32,000 bases of DNA from Delftia acidovorans NBRC 14950 (GCF_001598795.1 NZ_BCZP01000025.1:48595-80594); one strand, 5' to 3'. Shown: positions 1,475-15,568, numbered from the stretch's first letter. Made by a program: numbers and translations. The notes: generated by a model not told the origin, from the letters alone.

Positions 1475-1795
1475 CTACTCCAGCACCACGGCCGTGCCGC
1501 TGGCAGACACCATCAACATGCCGTTGCCCTGGCCCAGCACCTCGTAATCCAGATCCACCCCCACCACGGCATTCGCGCCCAATTCCTGGGCGCGTTCCTC
1601 CAGCTCCTTGAGCGCAATCTCGCGCGCCCGCTGCAGCTCGCGCTCATAGGTGGCCGACCGCCCACCCACGATGTCGCGCAGCCCGGCAAACAAGTCCTTG
1701 AACACATTGGCGCCCAAAATCGCCTCGCCCGCGACCACGCCGCAGTAGCGGGTGATGCGGCGGCCTTCGATCTGGGGGGTGGTGGTGATGATCAT
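1475..1795 (-). CDS. ybjQ: YbjQ/UPF0145 family protein
   Basis: 106 aa. [55 protein letters not shown]...[15 protein letters not shown] matches the YbjQ family over its whole length. A GAGGA Shine-Dalgarno lies upstream on the minus strand. Confidence 0.85.
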
Positions 1796-2121
1796 GAGAA
1801 ATCCTCGGTGAGTGACGGAGATAAGCCTTGAGCGCCAAGCCGGCCGGCGATCGGTTCAAGGAAGAACTGAACCAGGGCAGTCTGCCATAGGCCTGGAGTA
1901 TCATCTCGCGCAAAGTGCTGAACACACTTCTTGCTAGCCGGTAAGCCGCTCCCGAAAGCATTGTTGGAAAAATGCTTGGAGGCCTTATGGCTATTTTCTT
2001 TGCGGGCGTTTCAAGGCCCTTCCCCATCTCAATTTCCACTGCGCCACAGCTCTCTGATCTGTACATCGCTTCTTACCCTTTCTCCGCGCCCGGCTCCAAG
2101 CCATTTCGCTAAGGAGTCGCC

Positions 2122-2592
2122 ATGTTGTACTTTCAGATGTCGGAAGATGAGTTCAACCAACTGAACCGCGTGCGAGAACAATGGGGACTCATCTCAAGCT
2201 TGCTGATTGGCGCTTACCCCAGCAATCCCATGGAGGTTGTCGATTCCAATGAGCTGCTTGCCTTTATCAATGCGCAGATTGAGGCGATGGAGGCAGTTGT
2301 GGGGGCGATAAGGCAAAGGGGCGTGATGAAACAGCTGACTGAGGAGAAAATCCTGGCGAAAGCCGTATCCGAGATCCGTCTTCTCCTGAGCGGATATCTG
2401 GGGAGCAACGTGGATGCGGATCCGAGCGTACGGATCGCAGCGCACCTGGCCTATGCCCTGCACAACGATGCATTGGCCGTGCTGGAGGGAAATGGCTTCA
2501 GCGCCGACGAAGCGCTGAAGCGGGTGGCGGCCGTGGACTCGCTTCTAGGAGTCGAGGTGGGGAGTGAATTCGTTCGCAGCTTGGAAGCTTAG
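2122..2592 (+). CDS. Hypothetical acidic all-helical protein (156 aa), no family recognised
   Basis: AAGGAG Shine-Dalgarno at 2110-2115 and ATG at 2122. It sits in a clearly lower-GC stretch, has a coding-like codon pattern and its own hairpin terminator. An alternative start exists at ATG 2137. Confidence 0.55.
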   Translation: MLYFQMSEDEFNQLNRVREQWGLISSLLIGAYPSNPMEVVDSNELLAFINAQIEAMEAVVGAIRQRGVMKQLTEEKILAKAVSEIRLLLSGYLGSNVDADPSVRIAAHLAYALHNDALAVLEGNGFSADEALKRVAAVDSLLGVEVGSEFVRSLEA

Positions 2593-2608
2593 AGCCCTCT
2601 CAAGACCA

Positions 2609-2640
2609 AGGGGCAATGACAGCATTGCCCCTTTCCTTCT
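2609..2640 (+). terminator. Rho-independent-like terminator of 2122..2592
   Basis: Perfect 10-bp stem AGGGGCAATG / CATTGCCCCT (2609-2618 and 2623-2632) with loop ACAG, followed by pyrimidine/T-rich TTCCTTCTT. It begins 16 nt after the TAG stop. Confidence 0.6.
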
Positions 2641-2873
2641 TCCCAAGCCGCCCCAGAATGCCCAGCCTCGACCTACAGTTCGCCTGCATGCGCACCAGCC
2701 AGACCTACAACGGTATGATGCCTGCCGGCACCGAACACCAACACTGATGCTTTGGAGCAGATAACAGCTCTTACCTGATTGATGCCATGGTGCGCTTGCG
2801 AGATCCGCCCCTTGAGAGCATGCGTTTATTCAATTAAAAACATCTCAGAAATGCATTCTTAATAGGAGTAGAA

Positions 2874-3176
2874 ATGCACTGCCAAAAATGTAGTCATGAA
2901 TTTCAAGCGACCGATGTTCGCTGCATCAACTGCGGAGCGACCTTGATCTATGAAGCAAACGGTCATTCCAAGGAATACAAGGAAGCCGCAAGCTTCCTGG
3001 ACTCAAAAATTTTTGCTGGAATGGGGGCCTTGATCGGATTTTCCATCGTGGCCTTTCTGTTGAAATTCATCTTTACTTCTCATTGGCTTTCAGATAGAGC
3101 AGTTTTCATGGCTGCGATGTGCGGCGGCTTGATCGGCGGTGTACTTGGACGCTTTATTCAAAAGCGCCAGCAATAA
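2874..3176 (+). CDS. Small zinc-ribbon membrane protein (100 aa)
   Basis: AGGAG Shine-Dalgarno at 2864-2868. The N-terminal CxxC-x13-CxxC (MHCQKCSHEFQATDVRCINCG) is followed by two hydrophobic segments (FAGMGALIGFSIVAFLLKFIF and AVFMAAMCGGLIGGVLG, the latter glycine-zipper-like). AT-rich upstream region and low-GC context. Confidence 0.6.
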   Translation: MHCQKCSHEFQATDVRCINCGATLIYEANGHSKEYKEAASFLDSKIFAGMGALIGFSIVAFLLKFIFTSHWLSDRAVFMAAMCGGLIGGVLGRFIQKRQQ

Positions 3177-3491
3177 TCAAAAAACGGAAGAAGGCACGAA
3201 GGCTTGGATCAGGGGTTGCATCTGTAGCCACAGTCGTTGCCTACAGGTCGTGATCGGTTCGTGCCGCATGGTGACGCGGGACATTCCGCCTAGCGTGATC
3301 GCTGCGGCCGTGCCTCACGGTGCGCGCGATCACGGATGAGGGCAAGACCGGCTTTCCTGCCCGGGCCTGCGGTCACCCGGCTCGGCAGCAGGCTCAGGCG
3401 GGCTGCCTTCCTTTCATCGGCCTGCATGATCCGGACACCACGCGGCTGCCCGAACAGCCCCATAATCTGGCTTCAAAATTTCACGACACCA

Positions 3492-3833
3492 ATGACACAG
3501 TCCCTCAAAGAACTCCTTGCGGCCAAGGCCGCGCTGGACATGGAAATTGCCAAGGCCCGCACCTCGGCGGCCGACGCTGCCCTGTCCAAGGTCCAGAAGC
3601 TGGTGACCGATTTCGGGTTCACCCAGCAGCAAGTGTTCCCCTACATCCCTGAAAAAACCAGTGCGCCGGCGAAGTATCGCGATCCGGCTACGGGAGCGAC
3701 GTGGACAGGTCGAGGCAAGCCTCCGAACTGGATCAAGGACCAGGATCGCGACGACTTCCTCATCGAAAGCAAACCCGAAGCGGCCCAAGGCCCGTTTCTC
3801 GCCGAAATGGCGGCAGCGGCAGCTCGCAACTGA
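3492..3833 (+). CDS. H-NS-like nucleoid-associated DNA-binding protein
   Basis: ORF 3336..3833 was trimmed to ATG 3492. The N-terminal coiled-coil MTQSLKELLAAKAALDMEIAKAR and the C-terminal YRDPATGATWTGRGKPPNWI match the H-NS/Bv3F-type DNA-binding motif (TW[ST]GRG..P.W). CATAAT (3459-3464) is a possible -10 box. Confidence 0.85.
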   Translation: MTQSLKELLAAKAALDMEIAKARTSAADAALSKVQKLVTDFGFTQQQVFPYIPEKTSAPAKYRDPATGATWTGRGKPPNWIKDQDRDDFLIESKPEAAQGPFLAEMAAAAARN

Positions 3834-3909
3834 AAGCGCTGCACACGGCGGCACGCAGGATGCCGTGCGGTGCGGTGGAGTTCCGATGCGAAGGAATCTG
3901 TGCCTGCCG

Positions 3910-3945
3910 AAAAAAAGCCCTCTGAGCATTCAGCGGGCTTTTTTT
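3910..3945. terminator. Bidirectional intrinsic terminator between convergent hns-like and ABM genes
   Basis: A7 tract (3910-3916), stem GCCCTCTGA / TCAGCGGGC (3917-3925 and 3930-3938, one T:C mismatch), loop GCAT, then T7 tract (3939-3945). The symmetric layout allows termination in both directions. Confidence 0.7.
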
Positions 3946-4046
3946 CCGGCCTGGCGCCGGCGACGTAGTCACTTCCGGCATCTTTCGAGGGCGTGCATCG
4001 CGCTCCGGCAGGGGGATCAGCCGGGCCTTTGCGGCACCGCAAGCGC

Positions 4047-4421
4047 TCAGGCGTGGCTGACCGGGCAGCTGCCCGCCTTGCCCATGATGCTGTCCGCAGG
4101 CGCCTGCGCGCGGTCATTCAGTCCGTAGTCGCGCAGCACCTGGGTGACGCGCACGCGGTAGTCCTTGAAGATCTTGTCGCGGCCGGCGCGCTGGGCGCTG
4201 AGGTGGGCTTCCACGTTGCGCCACTGGACGACGGCTTCCTCATCGCGCCAGGTGGTGACGGACATGACTTTCTCGGGGTTGAGCGTGCTCTGGAAGCATT
4301 CCACGGAGATAAACCCCTCCATGGGCTTGAGCATGGGGGTGAGCTTGTTGACCAGGTCCACATAGGTCTGGTTCTGGCCGGGCAAGGCCTGCAGTTCGAA
4401 CAGTACGACAACCATCTTCAA
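4047..4421 (-). CDS. Antibiotic-biosynthesis-monooxygenase (ABM) domain protein
   Basis: 124 aa. MKMVVVLFELQALPGQ...GFISVECFQS..NPEKVMSVTTWRDEEAVVQWRN..H is the ferredoxin-like ABM fold pattern. AAGGAGAG Shine-Dalgarno upstream. It is the last gene of a same-strand four-gene run. Confidence 0.8.
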   Translation of the reverse strand: MKMVVVLFELQALPGQNQTYVDLVNKLTPMLKPMEGFISVECFQSTLNPEKVMSVTTWRDEEAVVQWRNVEAHLSAQRAGRDKIFKDYRVRVTQVLRDYGLNDRAQAPADSIMGKAGSCPVSHA

Positions 4422-4509
4422 CTCTCCTTTTTTCGGGAACAGAGATTCCGGCGCCGCGCAGCGGCGGCTCCGGCGTGGGGGAAATGGGTGAATGGGCGGC
4501 GCCGCAGGT

Positions 4510-5214
4510 TCAGCGGCTGCGCGCCAGGTTGGTCAGCCAGGCGGCCAGCACATTGCGCGCGGCCAGGGCCAGCAGGCCGCCGTATTTCTGGGCATCGGCA
4601 CGCAGGGTGCGCGGGTCCACCTGGGCGACGCCCAGTTCACAGGCATGGCCGACCAGCCAGCGCTCCAGCCGGGCCGCGTCGGCCTCCAGATGGAATTGCA
4701 GGCCCAGCACCTGCGGGCCCACGGCGAAGGCCTGGTTGGCGCCGATGGCGGTGCCGGCCAGGTGCACGGCGCCTTCGGGAATGTCGAACTGGTCGCCATG
4801 CCAATGGAGCACGGGCACGCCGTCCAGTTTGGCGAGGGGCGAGGCCAGGCCGGCGTCGGTGAGCGTGAGCGGCGAAAAGCCGATTTCCTTGACGCCCAGC
4901 GGGTAGACCCTGGCGCCCAGCGCGCGCGCAATGAGCTGGGCGCCCAGGCAGATGCCCAGCAGCGGCTTGCCGCTGTCCAGCCAGCGGCGCACGGCCGCCA
5001 GCTCCTGGGCGACGAAGGGATAAAGCGCCTCGTCATAGGCACCTATGGGGCCGCCCAGCACGACAAGCAGGTCGGCACGGCCCAGGTCCAGGGTGTCAAG
5101 CTCGCCGATGCTGGGATCGACGTACTGCACTTCGTAGCCGCGGCTGGCGAACTCGGCATGCAGGGTGCCCAGGTCTTCGAAGTGGATGTGGCGCAGCGCG
5201 ATGGCTTTTTTCAT
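4510..5214 (-). CDS. Stand-alone class-I glutamine amidotransferase (GuaA-N/PuuD-like)
   Basis: ORF 4510..5856 was trimmed to ATG (CAT at 5212-5214), giving 234 aa. DLLVVLGGP, the nucleophile elbow LLGICLGAQL, then HWHGD and LGLQFHLE give a complete Cys-His-Glu triad context. Confidence 0.85.
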   Translation of the reverse strand: MKKAIALRHIHFEDLGTLHAEFASRGYEVQYVDPSIGELDTLDLGRADLLVVLGGPIGAYDEALYPFVAQELAAVRRWLDSGKPLLGICLGAQLIARALGARVYPLGVKEIGFSPLTLTDAGLASPLAKLDGVPVLHWHGDQFDIPEGAVHLAGTAIGANQAFAVGPQVLGLQFHLEADAARLERWLVGHACELGVAQVDPRTLRADAQKYGGLLALAARNVLAAWLTNLARSR

Positions 5215-5264
5215 GGGAAAACTCAGGTGGATACAGGAGGATGGCTTGGAACGTGCGGAGCCAG

Positions 5265-6344
5265 TCAGGCGCCGGGCTTGAGATCGACGTGGATATGGCC
5301 TGCCGAGGGGAAGGTGCAGCAGGCCAAGGCATAGCCGGCTTCCTTTTCCCTGTCGCTGAGGCAAAAGTCCGCCTCCAGCCGTGAACTGCCTCCCGTGATG
5401 CGGATGCGGCAGCTGCCGCAGATGCCGGCCCGGCACTGGCTGCGGATGGCAATGCCCACGCCTTCCAGGATTTCCAGCAGGCTTTTGCCGGACGCGGCTT
5501 CGACAATCTGCCCGCTGTGCGCGATCTGCAGCTGGCATGCCTGCGCGGTCTCGCCTGGCTGGGCAGTGGATGCGGCAGGCGGCGTGAAGGCCTCGATGTG
5601 CTGTATGGCACCGGGAAAGCAGGCCCGCGCATGCTCGCGAAAGGTCTGCGCAAAGGCGTGGCCGCCGCAGATGACCACCGCCTGGGGCTGGCCCAGCGCC
5701 AGCAGGGACTGCTGCGAGGGGCGGCCCGGCACGAAGGGGCCGTGGGCGGCAATGTCTTCGCGCGTGATGTGGATACGCAGGTCGAACCAGGGGGCCGTTT
5801 CGCACAGCTGCTGCAGCTCCTGCAGGAACGGAATGTCGGCCATGCGCGCAAAGCACAGCAGCAGCGTAGTGCGCGGCACGCGCCGGCCCTGCTGTTGCAG
5901 CCGGTCCAGTTCGCGCAGCAGCGCCAGCGGCAGGGTCAGGCCGATGCCGCCGGCCAGCATGACCAGGCAGTCCAGGCCCAGCACCAGGTCGGCCGTGATG
6001 TCACCGGCCACGTGGCCGAGCGGCAGCGTGGAGCCTGCGCGCAGCACCGCATGCATGTGGTCGGAGACGCTGCCCCGGCCCGAGCTTTTGACGGCAATGT
6101 CGAACTGGCCGGCGCCGTCGTGCTCGCTGCAGGGCTCGTAGCGGGTGATGGAGTACAGCCGCTGCTGCACGGCGCCACTGGCGTCGGGATGCTCGACGGC
6201 CACATGCCGACCGGGCCGCAGGCCGCCGAGGAACTGCGCCGAGGCGCCCTGCACGCGCAGGGTGTAGACCATGACGCCGCCCGCCTCTGCCCGTGCCGCG
6301 GCGCAGCGCGCCAGCGTGCTGCCTGCCTGGAGGGCGGCGCTCAT
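5265..6344 (-). CDS. FNR-like flavin reductase with C-terminal plant-type [2Fe-2S] ferredoxin domain (PDR/VanB/PaaE domain order)
   Basis: ORF 5265..7124 was trimmed to ATG (CAT 6342-6344), giving 359 aa. It has the flavin motif RLYSIT, the NAD(P) motif MLAGGIGLTLP, and the cluster motif CRAGICGSC...ALACC. Its start codon overlaps the stop of the upstream oxygenase (ATGA). Confidence 0.85.
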   Translation of the reverse strand: MSAALQAGSTLARCAAARAEAGGVMVYTLRVQGASAQFLGGLRPGRHVAVEHPDASGAVQQRLYSITRYEPCSEHDGAGQFDIAVKSSGRGSVSDHMHAVLRAGSTLPLGHVAGDITADLVLGLDCLVMLAGGIGLTLPLALLRELDRLQQQGRRVPRTTLLLCFARMADIPFLQELQQLCETAPWFDLRIHITREDIAAHGPFVPGRPSQQSLLALGQPQAVVICGGHAFAQTFREHARACFPGAIQHIEAFTPPAASTAQPGETAQACQLQIAHSGQIVEAASGKSLLEILEGVGIAIRSQCRAGICGSCRIRITGGSSRLEADFCLSDREKEAGYALACCTFPSAGHIHVDLKPGA

Positions 6345-7303
6345 GCCTGCATCTCCTCGAGGACCGAGGACACCAGCGCCACGCTGCCGCCCAGGTTGCG
6401 GCCCGCAAGGCCGATGCGGTCGATCAGGCTTTGCACCGAGTCGGTGTAGACGCCGATCTCGTTGCTGTCGCCCACGTCGTGCAGGATGTCGCGCGCATGC
6501 GGCATGCCGACCATGGTGAAGACGGTGGACCAGGCGCCCAGTTCGTTGTTGGCGAACATCTGCACGGTCTTGAGGATGATGGAGCGCAGGTAGCTGCGCT
6601 CGCGGTTGCTCAGGCCCTGGACGATGTCGGTGGCCACCGAGCTGAAGACGCTGGAGTGGCTCCATTCGTCCACGGCGTGGGTGCGCGTGACCTCGTGGCA
6701 GATGGGCTGGATGGAGCGGTCCTCGGCCATGGTCTTGAGGTAGTCGGTGATCAGGGTCTCGCTGGCACAGGCAATGGCGAAGCGGGCCAGGCGGCGCTCC
6801 CATTCCGCGCCGCACTGCGCCAGCACGCCGTTGCGCCAGCCGACGAGGTTGAAGTCCGCGTAGTCCAGCGGCGCCAGGCCGCGCATCTCGTAGATGTAGT
6901 TGCAGGCCATGATGGACATGCGGGTGTGCAGGGCCTCGTCCAGCAGGGCCTGGGACATGACGTCCTGCAGCAGCGCCCGGTTGGCGCTGGGCGGCGGGGT
7001 CTTGATGATGTCCTCGCAGGCCGGCGTGACCACGTTGCACTCGATGTAGATGGTCTTGAGGTTGTAGATGCCCCAGGCGTAGGACAGGCATTGGTCGCGC
7101 AGGTGCTGTGGCGCCTCCACCCATGCCTGGTGGTCGCGAAACGGCAGCAGCGAGGCGGTGAAGTCCTGCCGGGCGGGGTCGAACGCCAAGCCGCAGTAAT
7201 CAGGCAGGTCCTGATTCACGGCCGCTCTTGACTTCCAGAGCAGGGACAGCTTTTTGAGCGCATCGCGCACGGCGTCATCTGTCCGAGAGATATCGAGATT
7301 CAT
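6341..7303 (-). CDS. AurF/CmlI-family (PF11583-like) non-heme diiron oxygenase
   Basis: 320 aa. Ligand motifs appear in AurF order: IECNVVTPA (Glu), LLDEALHTRM (E..H), ACASETLITDYL (Glu), THAVDEWSHSS (H-x3-E-x2-H with the extra His typical of AurF). The N-terminal SRAAVNQDLPDY resembles AurF RRAAVVNKADI. GGAG Shine-Dalgarno lies 7 nt upstream. Confidence 0.8.
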   Translation of the reverse strand: MNLDISRTDDAVRDALKKLSLLWKSRAAVNQDLPDYCGLAFDPARQDFTASLLPFRDHQAWVEAPQHLRDQCLSYAWGIYNLKTIYIECNVVTPACEDIIKTPPPSANRALLQDVMSQALLDEALHTRMSIMACNYIYEMRGLAPLDYADFNLVGWRNGVLAQCGAEWERRLARFAIACASETLITDYLKTMAEDRSIQPICHEVTRTHAVDEWSHSSVFSSVATDIVQGLSNRERSYLRSIILKTVQMFANNELGAWSTVFTMVGMPHARDILHDVGDSNEIGVYTDSVQSLIDRIGLAGRNLGGSVALVSSVLEEMQA

Positions 7304-7384
7304 TTTTCAACTCCGTGTAATTGAACTTGGTTGATCTGAGTCAAATCGCCTATTCCCTCCCCCCGCTTTCTCCATCCGCCGCAA

Positions 7385-7456
7385 TCACCAATGGCGCTGC
7401 AAATGACGATGCAAATGACGATGCACATGGCGCTTCAAATGACGCTGCAGATGGCA
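7385..7456. repeat. Six degenerate tandem copies of a 12-bp unit (consensus approx. MTGCAAATGRCG)
   Basis: TCACCAATGGCG / CTGCAAATGACG / ATGCAAATGACG / ATGCACATGGCG / CTTCAAATGACG / CTGCAGATGGCA. The array lies in a low-GC divergent intergenic region, 82-153 bp upstream of the AurF-like start. Confidence 0.8.
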
Positions 7457-7821
7457 GATACGTTGTCATGGATTTCTTCACTCTGTCATATTCCGCCTTG
7501 AATCAATCTGCCCGACTGCAAATTGCGGATGATTCCTGGCGGTATTGAATCTCATGACTTTCAACGTCTGGCGGCGAATTCTATGGAGACAGCGTGGATT
7601 CAAACAGACCTATTTTCGTCAATGAACCAGACCGCTTTTTCAACGGTTTACATTGGCATGCCACCTTAATTGGTCTGCTCACCCGCTGAAACATGGTCGG
7701 AATCAAGGCAGCTGCACTTTGTAGACTGCCCATTACCGATGCGCCCTGGTTTCCAAATCCTTCCATAACCCGGGCGCTGCCGATTCCCGTGCTTCAGCGC
7801 CTCCAAGACAGCCAATGCGAC

Positions 7822-9102
7822 ATGGACGATTTATCGCTCCCCAAAATCAATTCACTGGATCTTCAACAGGCAGACAGCGAGGCCTGGGATGCCATCGCGG
7901 CCGAGCGGATTCGCCAGTCGCGCTCGATTGAATTGATTGCCTCTGAAAACTTCGTGAGCCGCGCGGTGATGGAGGCGCAGGGCTCGGTGCTGACCAACAA
8001 ATACGCCGAGGGCTATCCGGGCGTGCGCTACTACGGCGGCTGCGCCAATGCCGATGCCGTCGAGAACCTGGCCATTGCGCGTGCCAAGGCGCTGTTCGGC
8101 TGCGCGCACGCCAACGTGCAGCCGCATTCGGGCAGCCAGGCCAACCAGGGCGTGTACCTGGCCTTTCTGGAGCCTGGCGACAAGATCATGGGGCTGGACC
8201 TGCGCTCGGGCGGGCACCTGACGCATGGCTCCCGCGTGAGCGTGTCGGGCAAGTGGTTCCAGTCCATCAGCTACGAGGTGGACGCCCGCTCCCAGCGCAT
8301 CGACATGGACCAGGTGCGGCGCATTGCGCTGAAGGAGCGGCCCAGGCTCATCATTGCCGGTGGCTCGGCCTATTCACGGCAGATGGACTGGGCCGAGTTC
8401 CGGCGCATTGCCGACCGGGTGGGCGCCATCTTCATGGCCGACATCGCGCACGTGGCGGGGCTGGTGGCCGCGGGCGTGTTCCCCTCCCCCGTGGAGCACG
8501 CCCATGTGACCACGACCACCACGCACAAGACGCTGCGCGGGCCGCGCGGCGGCATGATCCTCTCGGCCGACGCCGAGATCGCCAGGCGCATAGACGCCGC
8601 CGTGTTTCCGGGCCTGCAGTCCGGGCCGCTGATGCATGTGGTGGCGGCCAAGGCGGTGGCGCTGGGCGAGGCGCTCAAGCCCGCCTTCCGCACCTATGCG
8701 CGGGCCGTGGTGGACAACGCCCGCGTGCTGTGCGACCGGCTTTCGCAGGGCGGACTGTCCGTGGTCTCCGCAGGCACGGACTGCCATCTGGGCGTGATCG
8801 ACCTGCGCCCCTGGGAGCTGACGGGCAAGGCCGCCGAAACGGCGCTGGAGCAGATCGGCATCACGGTCAACAAGAACGCCGTGCCCGGCGATGGCGCGCG
8901 GCCGCTGGTGACCTCGGGCATCCGCGTGGGCAGCGCGGCCTGCACCACGCGCGGCATGGGCGCCGACGAGTTCCGCGAGATCGGCGACATGATTCTTGCC
9001 ACGCTGGGCGGCATACGCAGCGGCACCATGAACGCGCGCACGCTCAAGTCCATCCACGAAGGCGTGTCCGACCTCACCGGGCGCTTTCCCCTGCCCTATT
9101 GA
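7822..9102 (+). CDS. Serine hydroxymethyltransferase-family PLP enzyme, divergent paralog (SHMT-1)
   Basis: ORF 7693..9102 was trimmed to ATG 7822 by alignment logic (17 residues before [12 protein letters not shown]...IELIASENF). It contains [16 protein letters not shown] and the PLP-lysine motif [14 protein letters not shown]. There is no clear Shine-Dalgarno, so the start is uncertain. QSGP and PGDGARP replace the QGGP and PNDPRSP seen in the second copy. Confidence 0.85.
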
Positions 9103-9132
9103 GGCATGCAGCGTCCGGCGTCTCCCAACCTG

Positions 9133-10647
9133 TCAGGGTTTTCGCAGCGCGTTGGCCAGGCGCAGCACGGCGGCCTCGATCTCGTAGGCCGTGAGGGAGG
9201 CATAGCCCAGCAGCCAGCCCGGCTGCCGCTGCTCGCCCGCGTACAGGCGGCTGAGCCCCTGCAGCAGCACGCCGGCCGCGGCGGCGCGGCGGATAGTGTC
9301 TTCCTCGGACCAGCCGGGCTCCAGCAGGCAGGGCACCTGCATGCCGCCCTGGGGCCGTGGCGCGGTGACGATGCCGGCCAGGTGCCTGCCTATGGATTCG
9401 AGGATGACCTCGCGCCGCCCCGCGTACAGCTTGCGCATGGCCCGCACGTGGGAGTTGTAGTGGCCGTCTTCCATGAAGCGCGCCAGCGTCAGCTGCTGGA
9501 TCTGGGGCGTGTGCCCGTCCATGATGCTGCGCGCCTGGACAAAGGCGCGCACCAGCTCCTGCGGCAAGGCCATGTAGCCCATGCGCAGGCCCGGGTACAG
9601 GGTCTTGCCGAAGGTGCCGATGTAGATGGTGCGCCCGTGCTTGTCCAGGCCTTGCACGCAGGCGGTGGGCATGCCGTCGTAGTGGAATTCGCTGTCGTAG
9701 TCGTCCTCGATGATCCAGCGCCCGCTCTCGAACGCCCATCGGATCAGGTCCAGCCGCCGCTCCAGCTGCATGGTGACGCCCGTGGGGTACTGGTGCGATG
9801 GCGTGACGTAGACGCAGGTGGCGCCGCTGCGGTCGGCATGCAGCAGGTCCGTGCGAATGCCTTGCGCGTCCACGTCGATGGGCAGGACCTTGGCCTCCGC
9901 CGACTCGAAGGCCTTGCGGGCGCCGAAGTAGCCGGGGTTCTCCAGCAGGATGGGCCGGCCCGCGTCCACCAGCAGCTGCGCGCACAGGAACAGCGCCTGC
10001 CGCGTGCTGCTGAGCACCACGATCTGCCCGGCGTCCACCTTGGCGCCGCGCTCCAGGTTGAGGTAAGTGGCAATGGCCTTGCGCAGCGGCTCGGCGCCCT
10101 GCGGGTCGCCGTGCAGCAGGACGCTGGCGCGGTAGTCCTTGAGCGCCTGCCGCTGCAGCCGCTCCCAGACATCGGTGGGAAAGGTTCGCGTCTCGGGCAG
10201 GCCGGTGGCAAAGGCCCGAATGGTCTGCTGGTCGGCGATGCCGCCGCCGTCAACAATGGCCTGGCCGCGCCGGCTCAGGCCGGCACCGGCCCTGCCCGCT
10301 GCGGCCACCTGGGCGCTGCGCTCGTGCTCGGGCGACCGGCCGCGCCGCGCCGCCCGGCCCCGCAGCTCGGTGCCGATGGTCTCGGAGACATAGCTGCCCG
10401 ATCCCTGGCGCCGCACGATGAAGCCGTCGCGGTGCAGCTGGGTGTAGGCGTTCTCCACCGTGTCGCGGGCAATGCCCAGCGAGTCGGCCAGCGAGCGCGT
10501 GGCCGGCAGCTTCAGGCCGGGCAGCAGAGCTCCGTCCAGGATGAGCGCACGCATGGCGCGCTGCACCCGCTGGTGCAGGTCCAGCTGGCGCAGGTCGGCA
10601 TCTCCCATGCGGATCTTCAGGGTCTCAAGCTCGAAGGTCTTGCTCAT
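9133..10647 (-). CDS. MocR/PdxR/GabR-type regulator (GntR wHTH fused to fold-type-I aminotransferase domain)
   Basis: 504 aa. The N-terminal L.LPATRSLADSLGIARDTVENAYTQLHRDGFIVRRQGSGSYV is a GntR HTH. A long C-terminal aminotransferase-like domain follows (YGDPQG, TPSHQYPTG, IYIGTFGKTLYPGLRMGY with the PLP Lys). Confidence 0.9.
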   Translation of the reverse strand: MSKTFELETLKIRMGDADLRQLDLHQRVQRAMRALILDGALLPGLKLPATRSLADSLGIARDTVENAYTQLHRDGFIVRRQGSGSYVSETIGTELRGRAARRGRSPEHERSAQVAAAGRAGAGLSRRGQAIVDGGGIADQQTIRAFATGLPETRTFPTDVWERLQRQALKDYRASVLLHGDPQGAEPLRKAIATYLNLERGAKVDAGQIVVLSSTRQALFLCAQLLVDAGRPILLENPGYFGARKAFESAEAKVLPIDVDAQGIRTDLLHADRSGATCVYVTPSHQYPTGVTMQLERRLDLIRWAFESGRWIIEDDYDSEFHYDGMPTACVQGLDKHGRTIYIGTFGKTLYPGLRMGYMALPQELVRAFVQARSIMDGHTPQIQQLTLARFMEDGHYNSHVRAMRKLYAGRREVILESIGRHLAGIVTAPRPQGGMQVPCLLEPGWSEEDTIRRAAAAGVLLQGLSRLYAGEQRQPGWLLGYASLTAYEIEAAVLRLANALRKP

Positions 10648-10838
10648 GCGGTCTGCTGCCTTTCATCTCATTACACCTCTTGGGCAGGCCATTGTACTGA
10701 CGCAAACGCTGCGCACCCATTGCAAAGTGGTCTGAAACAAGAGAGCGAAGTGTATGGATCATTCAGTCCACTTCGGCGCTCAAATACCCCTTTCCCCAGA
10801 CAGCCAGGAATCCAACCCCCAAGGAAAACGAGAAGACC

Positions 10839-12095
10839 ATGCCTTCATCAGACACACACTCACCCCTTCGCTTCAGAGACCTCATCCACCCCGTTGTGGC
10901 CGGGCTGATCTCGGTCATCGTCAACTACGGCGGCACCTTCATCCTGGTGTTCCAGGCCGCCAAGGTGGCCGGCCTGAGCCCGGAACTCACGGCTTCGTGG
11001 GTGTGGTCGATTTCGATTGGCGTGGGCGTCACCGGGCTGGTGCTGAGCTGGCTCTCGCGCGAGCCCATCATCACGGCCTGGTCCACGCCGGCCGCCGCTT
11101 TCCTGGTGACGGCCCTGGCCACCACGCCGTATGCCGAGGCCGTGGGCGCCTATGTGGTGTCGGCCGCGGCCTTCGTGGTGCTGGGACTGTCGGGCTGGTT
11201 CGAGCGCGTGATCCGGCTGATTCCGCCCGGCGTGGCCTCGGGCCTGCTGGCGGGCATCCTGCTGCAGTTCGGCATCAAGGCCTTTGGCGGCATGAGCGTG
11301 GACCCGCTGTTGGCCGGCCTGCTGATCGTGGCCTATGTGCTGCTCAAGCGGCTCACGGCGCGCTATGCGGTGGTCGGCATCCTGGCGCTGGGCATGGCGT
11401 TCCTGCTGGCGCAGGACCGTGTGGACCTGTCCGGGCTGCAGCTGCGATTCGCGGCGCCGGTGTTCACACGGCCGGAATTCACGCTCAACGCCCTGCTCAG
11501 CGTGGCCCTGCCGCTGTTCCTGATCACGCTGACCGGCCAGTACATGCCCGGCATGCTGGTGCTGCGCAACGACGGCTTCAAGACCAGCGCCAACCCCATC
11601 GTCACGCTGACGGGCCTGGGCTCGCTGCTGATGGCGCCGTTCGGCTCGCACGCCTTCAACATCGCCGCCATCACGGCCGCCATCTGCACGGGCAAGGAGG
11701 CGCATGAAGAGCCGTCCAGGCGCTGGATCGCGGGCATCGCTGCGGGCGTGTTCTACATCCTGGTGGGCGTGTTCGGCGTCACGCTGGCGGCCGTGTTCAT
11801 GGCGTTCCCGGCCACCTTCATCACCACGCTGGCGGGCCTGGCGCTGCTGGGCACCATCGGCGGCAGCCTGGCCAATGCGCTGGCCGACGCCAAAACCCGC
11901 GAGGCCTCGCTGATCACCTTCCTGGCTGCCGCAGCCAACATTTCCATGCTGGGCATAGGCGGCGCCTTCTGGGGCCTGGTCATCGGCCTGGTCGCCCATG
12001 CCGTGCTCAACGGCCAGTGGCCGCGCCGGGCCGCCCGCAGCGAGGCGGGCACCGGCAACGTGCCCGCCGCCGATGCCGCCATCAAAAGGAGCTGA
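10839..12095 (+). CDS. benE: BenE-family (benzoate:H+ symporter family) membrane transporter
   Basis: 418 aa and polytopic. VAGLISVIVNYGGTFILVFQAAKVAGLS...ASWVWSISIGVG and TAWSTPAAAFLV match BenE family signatures. It is divergent from MocR. Confidence 0.8.
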   Translation: MPSSDTHSPLRFRDLIHPVVAGLISVIVNYGGTFILVFQAAKVAGLSPELTASWVWSISIGVGVTGLVLSWLSREPIITAWSTPAAAFLVTALATTPYAEAVGAYVVSAAAFVVLGLSGWFERVIRLIPPGVASGLLAGILLQFGIKAFGGMSVDPLLAGLLIVAYVLLKRLTARYAVVGILALGMAFLLAQDRVDLSGLQLRFAAPVFTRPEFTLNALLSVALPLFLITLTGQYMPGMLVLRNDGFKTSANPIVTLTGLGSLLMAPFGSHAFNIAAITAAICTGKEAHEEPSRRWIAGIAAGVFYILVGVFGVTLAAVFMAFPATFITTLAGLALLGTIGGSLANALADAKTREASLITFLAAAANISMLGIGGAFWGLVIGLVAHAVLNGQWPRRAARSEAGTGNVPAADAAIKRS

Positions 12096-12099
12096 AACC

Positions 12100-13008: not shown

Positions 13009-14247
13009 ATGCAAAAAGCCATGCAACCCCTTGATTCCCGCCTGATGAAGGCCTATGCCCGCCAGCCCGTCTCCTTCGTCCGTGGCCGTGGAGCCCTGCT
13101 GTGGGACGAGCACGGCAACGAATACCTGGACGCCATTGCCGGCGTGGCAGTGACCGCCCTGGGCCACGCCCATCCGGAGATCGCCGCCGTGATCGCCGAG
13201 CAGGCCGGCCTGCTGCTGCACACCTCCAACGTGTTCCGCATCGACTGGCAGGAACGCCTGGGCCAGCGCCTGTGCTCCCTGGCCGGCATGGAGACGGCCT
13301 TCTTCTGCAACTCCGGCGCCGAGGCCAATGAGGCCGCGCTCAAGCTGGCGCGCCTGCACGGCCACCGCAGGCAGGTGGCGCGGCCGCAGATCCTGGTGAT
13401 GGACAACGGCTTTCACGGCCGCACACTGGCCACGCTGTCGGCCACGGGCAACCCGGCTAAGCAGCGCGGCTTCGAGCCGCTGATGCCGGGCTTCGTGCGC
13501 GTGCCCTATGACGACATCGCGGCCGTGCACCACGCCGCCGCCCAGCATGGCGACATCGTGGCCGTGCTGATCGAGCCCGTGCAGGGCGAAGGCGGCATCC
13601 GCCTGGCAAGCCCCGACTACCTGCGCCAGCTGCGCAGCCTGTGCGACCGGCATGGCTGGCTGCTGATGCTGGACGAGATCCAGACCGGCCTGGGACGCAC
13701 CGGCGCCTGGTTCGGCCACCAGCACGCGGGTATCACCCCCGATGTGATGACCCTGGCCAAGGCCCTGGGCAACGGCATTCCTATCGGCGCCTGCCTGGCG
13801 CGCGGGCCTGCGGCCGACCTGATCTCGCCCGGCCAGCATGGCTCCACCTTCGGCGGCAACCCGCTGGCCTGCCGCGTGGGGTGCACGGTGCTGGACATCA
13901 TGGAGAGCGAGGACATCCCCGGCCGCGCCAGGCAACTGGGCCGGCGCCTGCTCAACGGCCTGCAGCAGGCGCTGCACGGCCACCCCGACGTGCTGGCCGT
14001 GCGCGGCCAGGGCCTGATGGTGGGCATCGAGTTGAACCGCAACTGCCAGGACCTGGTGGGCCGCGCGCTGGCCCAGCAGCGCCTGCTGATCACGGTGACG
14101 CGCGAATCCACCATCCGCCTGCTGCCGCCGCTGATATGTGACGAGCGCCAGATCGACGACATCGTCGCCCGCGTAGCCTGCCTGCTGGAGCCGGCCAGCG
14201 CCGCGCAGGCAGGCGCCCCCGCCGCAGGCCAGCTGGCAGCTGCATGA
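13009..14247 (+). CDS. Class-III (ArgD/acetylornithine/omega-amine type) PLP aminotransferase
   Basis: 412 aa. [11 protein letters not shown]...[76 protein letters not shown] Shine-Dalgarno upstream. Confidence 0.9.
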
Positions 14248-14293
14248 CCATCGATTCCCCCAGCCCTTGCCCCGACACAGGAACCACTCACCC

Positions 14294-15568
14294 ATGTACG
14301 ACGCATCCCTGACCCTGGCCGACTTCGACCTGCAGCTGGCCAAGGCCATCCAGAGCGAGAAACGCCGCCAGGAAGACCATGTGGAACTCATCGCCTCCGA
14401 AAACTACGCCAGCCCGCTGGTGATGGCGGTGCAGAACTCGGTCTTCACCAACAAGTACGCCGAGGGCTATCCCGGCAAGCGCTACTACAGCGGCTGCGAG
14501 AACGTGGACGTGGCCGAGCGCCTGGCCGTGGAACGCGCCATGGCGCTGTTCGACTGCGACTACGCCAACGTGCAGCCCCATGCCGGCGCCCAGGCCAATG
14601 CCGCCGTGTTCCTGGCGCTGGCCCAGCCCGGCGACACCGTCATGGGCATGAACCTGGCCCAGGGCGGCCACCTGACGCATGGCAACCCGTCCAACTTCTC
14701 GGGCCGCCATTACCGCATCGTCCCCTACGGCCTGGACCCCGCCACGGGCCTGATCGACTACGACGAGATGGAGCGCATCGCCCTGGAGCACCGGCCCCGC
14801 ATGCTCATCGGCGGCTTCTCTGCCTACTCGCGCCACAAGGACTGGGCCCGCATGCGCGCCATTGCCGACAAGGTGGGCGCCGTGTTCTGGGTGGACATGG
14901 CCCATGTGGCAGGCCTGGTGGCTGCGGGCGAATACCCCAGCCCACTGCCCCACGCGCATGTGGTCACCAGCACCACGCACAAGACGCTGCGCGGCCCGCG
15001 CGGCGGCCTGATCCTGTCCAAGGGACAGGACGAAACCTTCAACCGCCGCCTGAGCTCGGCCGTGTTCCCCGGCGTGCAGGGCGGGCCGCTGATGCATGTG
15101 ATCGCCGCAAAGGCCGTCGCCTTCAAGGAGGCGCTGCAGCCCGGCTTCAAGACCTACCAGCGCCAGGTGCTGGCCAACGCCCGCGCCATGGCCGCCGTGA
15201 TCCAGCAGCGCGGCTACCGCATCGTCTCGGGCGGCACGGACAACCACCTGATGCTGATCGACCTGTCCGACCGCAGCTACACCGGCAAGGATGCCGACGC
15301 CGCGCTCAGCGAGGCGCACATCACCACCAACAAGAACACCGTGCCCAACGACCCGCGCTCGCCCTTCGTGACCTCGGGCCTGCGCATAGGCACGCCCGCC
15401 GTCACCACGCGCGGCTTCGGCCAGGCGCAGTGCGAACAGCTGGCCGGCTGGCTGTGCGATGTACTCGATGCGCTGGACGCGCAGGAAGGCGCCCGCTTTG
15501 CCAAGGTGGCGGCGCAGGTCAGGGAGCAAGTGACGGGGCTTTGCGCCCGCTATCCGGTGTACGGATAG
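14294..15568 (+). CDS. glyA: Serine hydroxymethyltransferase, canonical GlyA-like (SHMT-2)
   Basis: ORF 14267..15568 was trimmed to ATG 14294. It is close to collinear with enterobacterial GlyA as I recall it: [86 protein letters not shown], and C-terminal CARYPVYG. Confidence 0.9.

What the first reader, a model, noticed from the sequence alone, without database searches (positions are those of the whole stretch)
4047..7303. AurF-family diiron oxygenase translationally coupled to its own reductase, plus a GATase and an ABM protein: an uncharacterised four-gene oxidative cassette
Seen in sequence:
- 6341..7303 carries all AurF-type ligand motifs in order, including the H-x3-E-x2-H (HAVDEWSH) that separates AurF/CmlI-type enzymes from most ferritin-like oxygenases.
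- Its TGA overlaps the ATG of a 359-aa FNR-like/[2Fe-2S] reductase (ATGA at 6341-6344).
- A stand-alone class-I glutamine amidotransferase with an intact triad follows 50 nt downstream, and an ABM monooxygenase 88 nt after that.
- All four are on the minus strand and closed by a bidirectional terminator.

Established knowledge: AurF/CmlI-type enzymes are arylamine N-oxygenases found in natural-product clusters, and to my knowledge they are usually not encoded with a dedicated reductase. The FNR plus C-terminal ferredoxin layout is that of PDR/VanB/PaaE partners of catabolic oxygenases. Stand-alone GATase-like proteins act as gamma-glutamyl-amide hydrolases in amine catabolism (PuuD, TdnT/AtdA2-type).

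Inference: this looks like a minimal two-component diiron oxygenase system wired like a catabolic oxygenase rather than a biosynthetic tailoring enzyme. There is no NRPS, PKS or PABA-synthase context. It may N-oxygenate or hydroxylate an amino-aromatic or amino acid substrate, with the GATase making or removing an amide or gamma-glutamyl handle and the ABM protein handling a reactive quinone or hydroxylamine product. I do not recognise this gene combination as a described pathway.
Basis: partly seen in the sequence, partly recalled or inferred. Interest (0 to 1): 0.78.

Follow-up and report, generated by a model that had tools for sequence, protein, structure and literature searches.

The report
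Delftia dnfABC hydroxylamine-forming gene cluster
The four genes are real, but three of them are the Delftia copy of dnfABC, the already published "dirammox" genes that let heterotrophic bacteria turn glutamine/ammonia nitrogen into hydroxylamine and N2, so only the fourth gene and a link to vitamin B6 genes are undescribed.

Summary
Four minus-strand genes encode an AurF-family diiron oxygenase (6341-7303), an FNR/[2Fe-2S] reductase that starts in an ATGA overlap (5265-6344), a class-I GATase (4510-5214) and an ABM protein (4047-4415). A hairpin terminator with A7/T7 flanks closes them.

The cassette is not uncharacterised. The window is Delftia, and the first three genes are orthologues of dnfA/dnfB/dnfC of Alcaligenes ("dirammox"). 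DnfA is 79% identical to the Alcaligenes-type protein, has the seven metal ligands at the published positions, and shares the neighbours (divergent SHMT, MocR regulator DnfR). The ISME J 2024 paper (PMC11440038) already lists a Delftia among dnfABC carriers.

Published work gives glutamine-dependent hydroxylamine formation: NADH → DnfB → DnfA N-oxygenation, then DnfC hydrolysis. The direct DnfA substrate is still disputed.

What I could add:
- The ABM gene follows dnfC in 17 of 23 dnfC-type loci that reach past dnfC. No held paper links it to dnfABC.
- The GATase and the ABM protein also occur without dnfAB, inside MocR/YggS/BenE/aminotransferase/SHMT modules. These were earlier predicted to be a PdxR (vitamin B6) regulon, including in Delftia.
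- dnfAB therefore looks like a two-gene insertion into a PLP-linked operon.
- A candidate operator, GGTCTG-N17-GGTCTG, is shared by Delftia and Alcaligenes-type loci.

Novelty is low; interest is modest.

The parts
6341..7303 (-). dnfA orthologue: AurF-family diiron N-oxygenase, 320 aa
   Evidence: PF11583 E=1.1e-57. Ligands E88, E123, H126, E182, H209, E213, H216 have the same numbering as published for HO-1 DnfA. 79% identical to the Alcaligenes-type locus L019. Ligands plus Y80 and K83 are invariant in 118 family members.
5265..6344 (-). dnfB orthologue: FNR-like FAD/NAD(P)H domain plus C-terminal plant-type [2Fe-2S] ferredoxin, 359 aa; start overlaps the dnfA stop (ATGA)
   Evidence: Fer2, FAD_binding_6 and NAD_binding_6. 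Best solved relatives are 7ylr and phthalate dioxygenase reductase 2pia. The ATGA overlap is conserved in all 24 dnfC-type loci checked. The protein sequence shows RLYS, GGIGLT and C-x4-C-x2-C motifs.
4510..5214 (-). dnfC orthologue: stand-alone class-I glutamine amidotransferase, 234 aa
   Evidence: NCBIfam PRK07053 340 bits, above the cut-off of 250; PF00117. Read from the sequence, the motifs GICLGAQ at 87 and LQFHLE at 172 place the triad at C89/H175/E177. 66% identical to solved chain 9xfs_A, which is 84% identical to the Alcaligenes locus L019 protein.
4047..4415 (-).
   Evidence: PF03992 E=4e-16. AAGGAG lies before ATG 4415. 81-86% identical orthologues follow dnfC in Pseudomonas, Serratia and Microvirgula, and an ABM-domain gene does so in Burkholderia. 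Also present without dnfABC nearby in Tistrella. AlphaFold pLDDT 88.6, generic ABM fold.
3910..3945 (.). Hairpin with A7 and T7 flanks: bidirectional intrinsic-terminator-like element closing the operon
   Evidence: Sequence. The fold of 3905-3965 gives -31.5 kcal/mol, z = -3.2.
7304..7821 (.). Divergent control region between dnfA and the SHMT gene
   Evidence: Lower G+C. One sigma-70-like site faces the SHMT gene at 7463-7492. Most of the region is conserved among three Delftia sequences. No Rfam family matched.
7605..7633 (-). Candidate DnfR/PdxR-type operator: direct repeat GGTCTG-N17-GGTCTG; a third, inverted GGTCTG lies at 7672-7677
   Evidence: Only match in the window; 0.04 expected by chance. 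The same repeat with the same spacing lies upstream of dnfA in Delftia L001/L002 and in Alcaligenes-type L003/L019, where a second copy abuts the dnfR start. Inferred, not tested.
7390..7453 (.). 12-nt tandem repeat, 5.3 copies, 87-150 nt upstream of the dnfA start codon
   Evidence: TRF score 79. About two repeat units (23 alignment columns) are missing in D. tsuruhatensis NBRC 16741 (L001) and the array is absent in D. acidovorans L002.
7822..9102 (+). Serine hydroxymethyltransferase paralogue, divergent from dnfA (position of dnfT2 in Alcaligenes); the ORF opens at 7693 but the likely start is M44 at 7822
   Evidence: PF00464 E=5e-161; NCBIfam SHMT 595 bits. Conserved next to dnfA in Pseudomonas and Alcaligenes-type loci and in Microvirgula; Burkholderia L033 has only a 108-aa fragment.
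9133..10647 (-). MocR-family regulator (GntR HTH plus aminotransferase-like PLP domain): dnfR orthologue, PdxR-type
   Evidence: GntR plus Aminotran_1_2. NCBIfam PdxR NF052282 427 bits, above the cut-off of 320. 74-78% identical in Pseudomonas and Alcaligenes-type loci. DnfR is described as the MocR regulator of the dnf cluster.
10650..10734 (.). dnfR-benE intergenic region with two more GGTCTG boxes (10650-10655, abutting the dnfR start codon, and 10729-10734)
   Evidence: The context catgcGGTCTGCT is the same as at the dnfR start in L003/L019.
10839..12095 (+). BenE-family transporter
   Evidence: PF03594 E=9e-128. Conserved in Pseudomonas loci and in Microvirgula, Serratia and Burkholderia. 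Called a putative pyridoxine transporter of PdxR regulons in PMC5320631.
12100..12951 (+). YggS/COG0325-family PLP-binding protein (ORF opens at 11998; likely start 12100)
   Evidence: TIGR00044 196 bits, above the cut-off of 106. A YggS-like gene recurs in dnf loci of Herbaspirillum, Jeongeupia, Serratia, Burkholderia and MAG L009.
13009..14247 (+). ArgD-like class-III aminotransferase
   Evidence: PF00202 E=3e-111. The same family is in the Tistrella, Halomonas and Jeongeupia modules.
14294..15568 (+). Second SHMT paralogue (likely start 14294)
   Evidence: PF00464 E=1e-165.

Best explanation
**What it is.** The cassette is the Delftia orthologue of the dnfABC ('dirammox', heterotrophic ammonia oxidation) genes, with an extra ABM gene. 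It sits inside a PdxR/DnfR-type MocR regulon.

**How it most likely works.**
1. DnfB takes electrons from NAD(P)H through FAD and its [2Fe-2S] cluster to the diiron site of DnfA.
2. DnfA uses O2 to N-oxygenate glutamine-derived nitrogen. The published proposal is that the amide N of L-glutamine is oxidised to L-glutamate gamma-hydroxamate.
3. DnfC, a Cys-His-Glu amidotransferase-type hydrolase, releases hydroxylamine and glutamate.
4. Hydroxylamine is then converted to N2, either by DnfA or abiotically.
5. The MocR regulator at 9133-10647 controls the divergent operons.

**Shown here:** orthology, the metal and catalytic residues, conserved translational coupling of dnfA and dnfB, and synteny.

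**Taken from the literature on Alcaligenes and E. coli:** hydroxylamine and N2 production, dependence on glutamine synthetase, and the DnfC hydrolase activities.

**Inferred and unsettled:** the direct DnfA substrate, the role of the ABM protein, and the role of the PLP-related neighbours.
For: **Orthology**
- The window is Delftia: 100% identity of the oxygenase to D. tsuruhatensis NBRC 16741.
- DnfA, DnfB and DnfC are 79%, 51% and 73% identical to the proteins of an Alcaligenes locus. That locus has the published order SHMT-MocR-SHMT-oxygenase-reductase-GATase; in its close relative L003 the next gene is a pyridoxal-kinase-like gene.
- The seven ligands have exactly the residue numbers published for HO-1 DnfA.
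- The GATase is 66% identical to solved chain 9xfs_A, which is itself 84% identical to the Alcaligenes protein.
- The oxygenase-stop/reductase-start ATGA overlap is present in all 24 dnfC-type loci checked.

**Function, from the literature**
- dnfABC alone lets E. coli make hydroxylamine and N2 (PMC9136411).
- glnA is required and glutamine is an intermediate (PMC11440038).
- DnfAB are reported to hydroxylate the glutamine amide, and DnfC to hydrolyse the hydroxamate (Miao 2023, via PMC11160463).
- A MocR regulator, DnfR, governs the cluster.
- dnfABC homologues are listed in Delftia lacustris, Pseudomonas cedrina, Xanthobacter, Jeongeupia and others. These are the same genera my searches returned.
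Against: - No experiment has been done on any Delftia cluster, so activity is extrapolated from 51-79% identical proteins.
- The ISME J 2024 authors found no binding of glutamine to DnfA and argue for an unidentified intermediate.
- The Sci Adv 2024 authors argue that conversion of hydroxylamine to N2 is largely abiotic and that the cluster may serve secondary metabolism.
- Some Alcaligenes strains that carry dnfABC do not oxidise ammonia.
- DnfC-type GATases of equal similarity occur without dnfAB, so DnfC may not be specialised for hydroxamate hydrolysis.
- The Delftia operon has an ABM gene in place of the Alcaligenes dnfD kinase.
Confidence: 0.8

Rival explanations
1. Glutamine-dependent ammonia N-oxygenase. 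DnfC acts as a true amidotransferase subunit that hydrolyses glutamine and hands nascent NH3 directly to the diiron site of DnfA. DnfA hydroxylates it to NH2OH, and no gamma-glutamyl hydroxamate is formed.
For: - DnfC is a bona fide class-I GATase with an intact triad.
- Neither free ammonia nor glutamine binds isolated DnfA, yet glnA and glutamine are required in vivo.
- dnfC deletion nearly abolishes NH2OH production, and dnfABC gives more NH2OH than dnfAB in E. coli.
Against: - dnfAB alone still gives some NH2OH in E. coli.
- In vitro hydroxamate formation and hydrolysis have been reported.
- The Pantoea-type DnfA relatives (68% identical) have no GATase partner.
- DnfC homologues exist without DnfA.
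- No complex has been shown.
Confidence: 0.12
2. Vitamin B6-linked function. The GATase, the ABM protein and perhaps DnfAB act on a B6 vitamer or PLP-bound amine, for example N-oxygenation of pyridoxamine(-phosphate) to the oxime with release of NH2OH. Alternatively, the surrounding PLP genes exist to protect and replenish the PLP pool, which hydroxylamine attacks.
For: - The regulator passes the PdxR model cut-off.
- A Delftia acidovorans MocR regulator (Daci_3711) was predicted to be PdxR, with an ArgD, BenE, COG0325 and GlyA regulon. That gene set matches the genes next to this window's regulator. GuaA-family amidotransferases were placed in PdxR regulons of Thauera and Paracoccus.
- YggS-like and pyridoxal-kinase-like genes are interleaved with dnfABC in Herbaspirillum, Jeongeupia, Microvirgula and Alcaligenes-type loci.
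- The GATase and ABM protein occur in such modules without dnfAB.
- That hydroxylamine forms oximes with PLP is established chemistry (my own knowledge).
Against: - No biochemical evidence exists.
- dnfABC alone is sufficient for NH2OH production in E. coli.
- The PdxR assignment is itself a comparative-genomics prediction.
- Co-regulation would equally fit a purely protective role.
Confidence: 0.15
3. One reading: a catabolic two-component oxygenase for an amino-aromatic compound or amino acid. The GATase would remove a gamma-glutamyl handle, as in aniline degradation, and the ABM protein would detoxify a quinone or hydroxylamine product.
For: - The AurF family includes arylamine N-oxygenases, and the reductase has the PDR/VanB layout.
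- Tyr80 and Lys83 align with AurF Tyr93 and Arg96. As I recall, those residues bind the substrate carboxylate; I could not verify this.
- A BenE-family transporter is nearby.
Against: - The score against the curated AurF equivalog model is 107 bits against a cut-off of 620.
- The cluster contains no glutamine-synthetase-like gamma-glutamyl ligase, ring-cleavage genes or aromatic pathway genes.
- The orthologous cluster has a demonstrated role in hydroxylamine formation from ammonia/glutamine.
Confidence: 0.04
4. Secondary-metabolite supply. The cluster makes hydroxylamine or a hydroxamate donor for a small bioactive molecule, in analogy to TsnB7/TsnB9 of trichostatin biosynthesis. Free NH2OH would then be overflow.
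For: - This was proposed in PMC11160463 on the basis of the co-induced amino- and hydroxymethyl-transferases.
- The Pantoea-type relatives pair the oxygenase and reductase with an ATP-grasp ligase, an N-acetyltransferase, a hydrolase and an MFS exporter. That looks biosynthetic.
Against: - No acceptor-specific transferase, NRPS or PKS is present in the Delftia locus.
- NH2OH and N2 are produced in quantity by E. coli carrying only dnfABC.
- The accessory genes also occur without dnfAB.
Confidence: 0.08

Closest known systems
dnfABC / dnfT1RT2ABCD 'dirammox' cluster of Alcaligenes ammonioxydans HO-1 and A. faecalis JQ135 (Wu et al. 2021; PMC9136411, PMC9478400, PMC11440038, PMC11160463)
   Same: - Same three enzymes in the same order, with the same ATGA coupling of dnfA and dnfB.
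- Identical ligand positions; 79%, 51% and 73% identity.
- Divergent SHMT and MocR regulator next door.
- The same candidate operator repeat.
   Different: - The fourth gene is an ABM protein instead of the pyridoxal-kinase-like dnfD.
- Delftia adds a benE-yggS-aminotransferase-SHMT operon.
- No experiments exist for Delftia.
TsnB7/TsnB9 of trichostatin A biosynthesis (Kudo et al. 2017, as described in PMC11160463)
   Same: An AurF homologue N-hydroxylates the glutamine amide to glutamate gamma-monohydroxamate, and an amidotransferase-type enzyme then cleaves it.
   Different: TsnB9 transfers the hydroxylamine to a polyketide acid inside a biosynthetic cluster. Here there is no acceptor pathway, the partner is a small stand-alone class-I GATase, and a dedicated reductase is encoded. 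I did not compare the sequences.
AurF / CmlI arylamine N-oxygenases (PDB 3chh, 5hyg)
   Same: Same Pfam family and the same 3-His/4-carboxylate diiron site. These are the best solved relatives, at E=2e-32 and 1.5e-25.
   Different: - About 28-30% identity as published.
- Fails the curated AurF model: 107 bits against 620.
- Not in a natural-product cluster, and has its own reductase.
Predicted PdxR (Proteobacteria) regulon of MocR-family regulators (Suvorova & Rodionov 2016, PMC5320631)
   Same: The gene set ArgD, BenE, COG0325/YggS and GlyA (plus a GuaA-family amidotransferase in Thauera) is listed for Delftia acidovorans SPH-1 Daci_3711. It matches window 9133-15568. The regulator passes the NCBIfam PdxR cut-off.
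   Different: That study did not list the diiron oxygenase and reductase, and predates dirammox. I did not verify by sequence that Daci_3711 equals the window's regulator.
Class IA oxygenase reductases (phthalate dioxygenase reductase, VanB, PaaE, GbcB)
   Same: FNR-like FAD/NAD domain followed by a C-terminal plant-type [2Fe-2S] domain.
   Different: Well below every equivalog cut-off (best 85 bits against 383). It serves a ferritin-like diiron enzyme rather than a Rieske or PaaA-type oxygenase.

Membership tests
DnfA (dirammox diiron N-oxygenase) | AurF-family (PF11583) fold with ligands Glu88, Glu123, His126, Glu182, His209, Glu213 and His216 | tested here: met
   PF11583 E=1e-57. The motif positions give exactly these residues, matching the list published for HO-1 DnfA.
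DnfA (dirammox diiron N-oxygenase) | Close sequence orthology to the Alcaligenes cluster protein | tested here: met
   79% identity over residues 1-303 to the oxygenase of Alcaligenes sp. WGS1538 locus L019, which has the published gene order. The HO-1 sequence itself was not available to me.
dnfABC cluster | Oxygenase, then FNR/[2Fe-2S] reductase, then class-I GATase in one operon | tested here: met
   The order is conserved in 21 of the 23 dnfC-type loci that reach past dnfB. The exceptions are Xanthobacter L018 (GATase upstream of dnfA) and Jeongeupia L023 (YggS-like gene between dnfB and dnfC).
dnfABC cluster | MocR-family regulator (DnfR) and SHMT-type 'dnfT' gene adjacent | tested here: met
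   Regulator at 9133-10647 and SHMT at 7822-9102. Both are conserved in Alcaligenes-type and Pseudomonas loci. DnfR is described.
dnfABC cluster | dnfD (pyridoxine/pyridoxal/pyridoxamine kinase) downstream of dnfC, as in dnfT1RT2ABCD | tested here: not met
   The gene after dnfC is an ABM protein. None of the window ORFs that were scanned hit a kinase family. The kinase is present in Alcaligenes-type L003, Jeongeupia and Microvirgula. The literature treats dnfABC, not dnfD, as the sufficient core.
dnfABC cluster | Confers formation of hydroxylamine and N2 from ammonia or glutamine | not testable with these tools
   Needs expression and 15N assays. It is known only for Alcaligenes genes in Alcaligenes and E. 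coli.
AurF sensu stricto (4-aminobenzoate N-oxygenase, NCBIfam NF045603) | Score at or above the curated cut-off of 620 bits | tested here: not met
   107.5 bits.
DnfC / PRK07053 glutamine amidotransferase | Curated model cut-off and a Cys-His-Glu triad | tested here: met
   339.9 bits against a cut-off of 250. The conserved motifs at 87 and 172 place the triad at C89, H175 and E177, read from the sequence. This family is much wider than Dnf: more than 7,900 hits, including loci without dnfAB.
PdxR-type MocR regulator | GntR HTH plus fold-type-I aminotransferase domain, and NCBIfam PdxR (NF052282) cut-off of 320 bits | tested here: met
   427 bits; GntR plus Aminotran_1_2. The effector and DNA site were not tested. 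The GGTCTG-N17-GGTCTG operator is my inference.
IsdG/HmoA-type haem-degrading ABM monooxygenases | Curated model cut-offs | tested here: not met
   18 bits against cut-offs of 119-130. The structural neighbours are generic ABM proteins such as PA3566, YgiN and LsrG.

The most novel reading that the evidence does not exclude
dnfAB is a mobile two-gene insertion into an older, widespread PLP-homeostasis operon. That operon comprises a MocR/PdxR regulator, YggS, a GATase, and variably BenE, an aminotransferase, SHMT, a pyridoxal kinase and an ABM protein. In this reading the disputed 'unidentified intermediate' of dirammox is a vitamin-B6-linked amine, for example pyridoxamine(-phosphate) or a PLP adduct loaded with glutamine-derived nitrogen by DnfC. 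DnfA N-oxygenates it, and hydroxylamine is released from the resulting oxime. The ABM and YggS proteins would then be working parts of the pathway rather than bystanders.
Probability: 0.1. Interest if true: 0.8.

Novelty: already known. Interest (0 to 1): 0.3.

Why it matters
The practical result is a corrected label. This is the dirammox (heterotrophic ammonia oxidation) cluster, not an unknown oxidative cassette, and its presence in Delftia has already been published.

The system itself matters for the nitrogen cycle and for wastewater nitrogen removal, and its chemistry is still argued over. The residual value of this window is comparative:
- The GATase (DnfC) and a conserved ABM protein belong to a PLP-linked MocR regulon that also exists without the oxygenase.
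- YggS-like and pyridoxal-kinase-like genes are interleaved with dnfABC in several genera.

If followed up, that pattern could help identify the true DnfA substrate or explain how producers tolerate hydroxylamine, which inactivates PLP enzymes.

Tried and rejected
- **Other ferritin-like families** (PaaA, desaturase, MiaE) for the oxygenase: only AurF scored.
- **AurF equivalog membership:** fails the curated cut-off.
- **Haem-degrading (IsdG/HmuQ) assignment for the ABM protein:** 18 bits against cut-offs of 119-130.
- **Structure prediction and Foldseek for the ABM protein:** a confident model, but only generic ABM neighbours and no functional pointer.
- **Sequence search of solved structures for DnfA:** nothing closer than CmlI and AurF.
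- **Rfam scan of the whole window:** no RNA family, so no riboswitch in the long dnfA-SHMT spacer.
- **Consensus terminator scan:** missed the real hairpin, which I found by reading the sequence and folding it.
- **Papers that were not held:** the DnfR papers (Xu et al. 2022, 2023) and the AurF structure paper. As a result, the published DnfR binding motif and the AurF substrate contacts (Tyr93/Arg96) could not be checked and rest on inference or memory.
- **Literature searches:** none linked dnfABC to ABM proteins. For pyridoxal, the only hit was the dnfD annotation.
- **Supplement of the ISME J paper:** no searchable text on cluster maps.
- **Plasmid search:** only Pantoea-type relatives and a distant (32%) Tistrella AurF homologue.

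Full report

Yes. The minus strand carries four consecutive ORFs.

- **6341-7303 (320 aa):** matches only Pfam AurF (PF11583, E=1.1e-57, nearly full length). It carries E88, E123/H126, E182 and H209-x3-E213-x2-H216.
- **5265-6344 (359 aa):** has FAD_binding_6, NAD-binding and Fer2 domains. Its ATG overlaps the upstream TGA as ATGA.
- **4510-5214 (234 aa):** a class-I GATase that passes NCBIfam PRK07053 (340 bits against a cut-off of 250). Reading the sequence around the motifs located gives the triad Cys89/His175/Glu177.
- **4047-4415 (122 aa):** an ABM-domain protein.
- **3910-3945:** a hairpin flanked by A7 and T7, 100 nt downstream of the ABM stop, folds strongly (-31.5 kcal/mol for the 61-nt segment, z = -3.2). 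It can serve as a bidirectional terminator.

**2. What is it?**

The window is from Delftia. The oxygenase is 100% identical to that of D. tsuruhatensis NBRC 16741, although the neighbouring genes are only 95-98% identical, so it is a related strain.

A literature search on AurF, diiron and SHMT led to the "dirammox" papers. In Alcaligenes ammonioxydans HO-1 and A. faecalis JQ135 the cluster dnfT1RT2ABCD is annotated as follows:

| Gene | Annotation |
|---|---|
| dnfT1 | transaminase |
| dnfR | MocR-type regulator |
| dnfT2 | SHMT |
| dnfA | diiron N-oxygenase |
| dnfB | [2Fe-2S] reductase |
| dnfC | glutamine amidotransferase |
| dnfD | pyridoxal kinase |

The window's genes are orthologues of dnfA, dnfB and dnfC:
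- They are 79%, 51% and 73% identical to the proteins of an Alcaligenes genome. That locus has the order SHMT-MocR-SHMT-oxygenase-reductase-GATase; in its close relative L003 the next gene is a kinase-like gene.
- The DnfA ligand residue numbers are identical to those published for HO-1 DnfA.
- The GATase is 66% identical to the solved chain 9xfs_A, which is 84% identical to the Alcaligenes protein.
- The ISME J 2024 paper lists dnfABC homologues in Delftia lacustris, Pseudomonas cedrina, Xanthobacter, Andreprevotia, Jeongeupia and Pokkaliibacter. My homologue and locus searches returned the same genera.

**3. Synteny**

- I checked 24 loci that carry a DnfA orthologue of the dnfC-linked type. 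All show the ATGA overlap of dnfA and dnfB: 23 (L001 read from the printed sequence, because the script's pick there was an artefact) and Burkholderia L033 from its called-gene coordinates.
- One locus (L013) is cut just after dnfB.
- In 21 of the other 23, the GATase directly follows dnfB. The exceptions are Xanthobacter L018, where it lies upstream of dnfA, and Jeongeupia L023, where a YggS-like gene intervenes.
- An ABM gene follows dnfC in 17 of those 23: Delftia, 12 Pseudomonas genomes, Burkholderia, Serratia and, after a kinase gene, Microvirgula. It is absent from the three Alcaligenes-type loci (Alcaligenes sp. WGS1538 and two related proteobacterial MAGs), Herbaspirillum, Jeongeupia and Xanthobacter.
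- The ABM protein is the best conserved protein of the set, at 83-86% identity between Delftia and Pseudomonas. It has a distinctive conserved C-terminal tail, RDYG-x3-R-x-QAP-x-DS.
- Its predicted structure is confident (pLDDT 88.6) but resembles only generic ABM proteins.
- No held paper links an ABM protein to dnfABC.

**4. The wider locus**

The neighbours are a divergent SHMT (7822-9102), the MocR regulator (9133-10647), and a benE - yggS-like - argD-like aminotransferase - second SHMT operon (10839-15568).

The regulator passes the NCBIfam PdxR cut-off (427 bits against 320). Suvorova & Rodionov (2016) had already assigned a Delftia acidovorans MocR regulator (Daci_3711) to a proteobacterial "PdxR" group. 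Its predicted regulon of ArgD, BenE, COG0325 and GlyA matches the genes next to this window's regulator. They called BenE a putative pyridoxine transporter, and placed GuaA-family amidotransferases in PdxR regulons of Thauera and Paracoccus.

PLP-related genes are interleaved with dnfABC in other genera:

| Genus | Arrangement |
|---|---|
| Herbaspirillum | yggS-dnfA-dnfB-dnfC |
| Jeongeupia | dnfA-dnfB-yggS-dnfC-pdxK-like, then an 87-aa ORF and a class-III aminotransferase |
| Microvirgula | dnfABC-pdxK-like-ABM |

The accessory genes also occur without the oxygenase and reductase:

| Genus | Arrangement |
|---|---|
| Halomonas | SHMT-aminotransferase-YggS / MocR-GATase (GATase 66% identical) |
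| Rubrivivax | MocR / YggS-GATase |
| Tistrella | MocR / BenE-aminotransferase-SHMT-ABM (ABM 72% identical) |

The GATase family has more than 7,900 members at E<1e-20. The DnfA family has 184 at E<1e-5.

My reading is that dnfA-dnfB is a tightly coupled pair inserted into an older PLP-linked MocR operon. The "four-gene cassette" is therefore a composite. This is inference from gene neighbourhoods.

**5. Regulation (inferred)**

- A direct repeat, GGTCTG-N17-GGTCTG, lies at 7605-7633. It is the only match in the window, against 0.04 expected by chance.
- The same repeat with the same spacing recurs upstream of dnfA in the other Delftia loci and in Alcaligenes-type loci. There, a second copy abuts the dnfR start codon.
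- In the window, catgcGGTCTG likewise abuts the regulator's start, and another box lies 79 nt away.
- This is a candidate DnfR operator. I could not read the papers that define the DnfR sites.

**6. How it most likely works**

These points come from the literature on Alcaligenes:
- dnfABC suffices for E. coli to make hydroxylamine and N2 from ammonia.
- Glutamine synthetase is required, and glutamine is an intermediate.
- DnfA is a diiron enzyme that binds hydroxylamine and converts it slowly to N2 with NADH, FAD and O2.
- DnfAB were reported to N-hydroxylate the glutamine amide, and DnfC to hydrolyse glutamine and glutamate gamma-hydroxamate. This parallels TsnB7/TsnB9 of trichostatin biosynthesis.

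I adopt that scheme as the best-supported one: NADH → DnfB → DnfA; glutamine amide → hydroxamate; DnfC → NH2OH + glutamate.

It is not settled:
- One group finds no glutamine binding to DnfA and postulates an unidentified intermediate.
- Another regards N2 formation as largely abiotic and suspects a biosynthetic role.

Two observations here bear on this:
- Tyr80 and Lys83 are invariant in 118 family members and align with AurF Tyr93 and Arg96. As I recall, those residues contact the substrate carboxylate; I could not verify it. If correct, it fits a carboxylate-bearing substrate such as an amino acid.
- DnfC-type GATases are no more similar inside Dnf clusters than outside them. This argues against a specialised hydroxamate hydrolase.

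**7. Rivals**

- Ammonia channelling from DnfC to DnfA (0.12).
- A vitamin-B6-linked role or substrate (0.15).
- Supply of a secondary metabolite (0.08).

The arylamine model lacks a gamma-glutamyl ligase or any aromatic pathway genes in the cluster, and the oxygenase fails the curated AurF model.

**8. Verdict**

What appears undescribed in the papers I could search:
- the conserved ABM gene;
- the fact that DnfC and the ABM protein belong to a PdxR-type PLP module that exists without DnfAB;
- the candidate operator.

Interest is modest (0.3). The most novel reading not excluded, a B6-linked intermediate, has low probability (about 0.1) but would be of high interest if true.

Noticed in passing
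window 7390-7453: A 12-nt tandem repeat (consensus AATGACGCTGCA, 5.3 copies) lies 87-150 nt upstream of the dnfA start. About two repeat units are missing in D. tsuruhatensis NBRC 16741 (L001) and the array is absent in D. acidovorans (L002). It is therefore a strain-variable repeat in the dnfA control region.
   Followed up: partly
L020 and L021 (Pantoea agglomerans), 5435-11218; also plasmid hits H1-H3: A second type of locus holds a 68%-identical DnfA-like oxygenase with a divergent reductase (29% identical). It has no GATase. The order is arylamine N-acetyltransferase (PF00797), serine hydrolase, MFS, oxygenase, reductase, ATP-grasp ligase. Related 301-aa proteins (67-69% identical) are widespread in Pantoea, Serratia and Pectobacterium; their gene contexts were not examined. 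It looks like a different, possibly biosynthetic, use of the same oxygenase.
   Followed up: partly
L024 (Tistrella mobilis) 2479-8345; L030 (Halomonas) 1759-7693; L032 (Rubrivivax) 4823-7717: MocR-regulated modules (BenE, YggS, class-III aminotransferase, SHMT, GATase, ABM in varying combinations) that lack dnfAB. The function of this widespread PLP-linked module is unknown.
   Followed up: partly
L018 (Xanthobacter sp. NM-59) 5782-10953: Rearranged and probably decayed dnf locus. The GATase is upstream of dnfA, the reductase matches only in two fragments (residues 22-109 and 251-351), and a phage-type integrase gene follows.
   Followed up: no
window 2000-4000: A stretch of lower G+C (0.54-0.59, against about 0.69 elsewhere). 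Its ORFs have no Pfam or NCBIfam match: 2122-2592 (+), and the overlapping pair 3414-3929 (-) and 3336-3833 (+). The overlapping pair is conserved at about 80% identity in other Delftia. It lies just beyond the terminator and could be a lineage-specific or acquired segment.
   Followed up: no
window 17641-25041 and 25997-31880: Unrelated neighbours. The first stretch holds MarR, an FAD monooxygenase, a cupin dioxygenase, a GST-type isomerase and TctC; I read this as a gentisate-type aromatic pathway. The second holds MarR, an aldehyde dehydrogenase, an acyl-CoA dehydrogenase and a 3-hydroxyisobutyrate dehydrogenase; I read this as valine catabolism. A patatin-like phospholipase gene lies at 15590-16723 (-).
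   Followed up: no
L004, L006, L015 (Pseudomonas), directly upstream of dnfA: These three Pseudomonas loci (the only ones where I scanned this gap) carry an MFS transporter gene between the SHMT gene and dnfA on the dnfA strand. P. cedrina L005 carries a class-V (SerC-like) aminotransferase between benE and the regulator. Neither gene is present in Delftia.
   Followed up: partly
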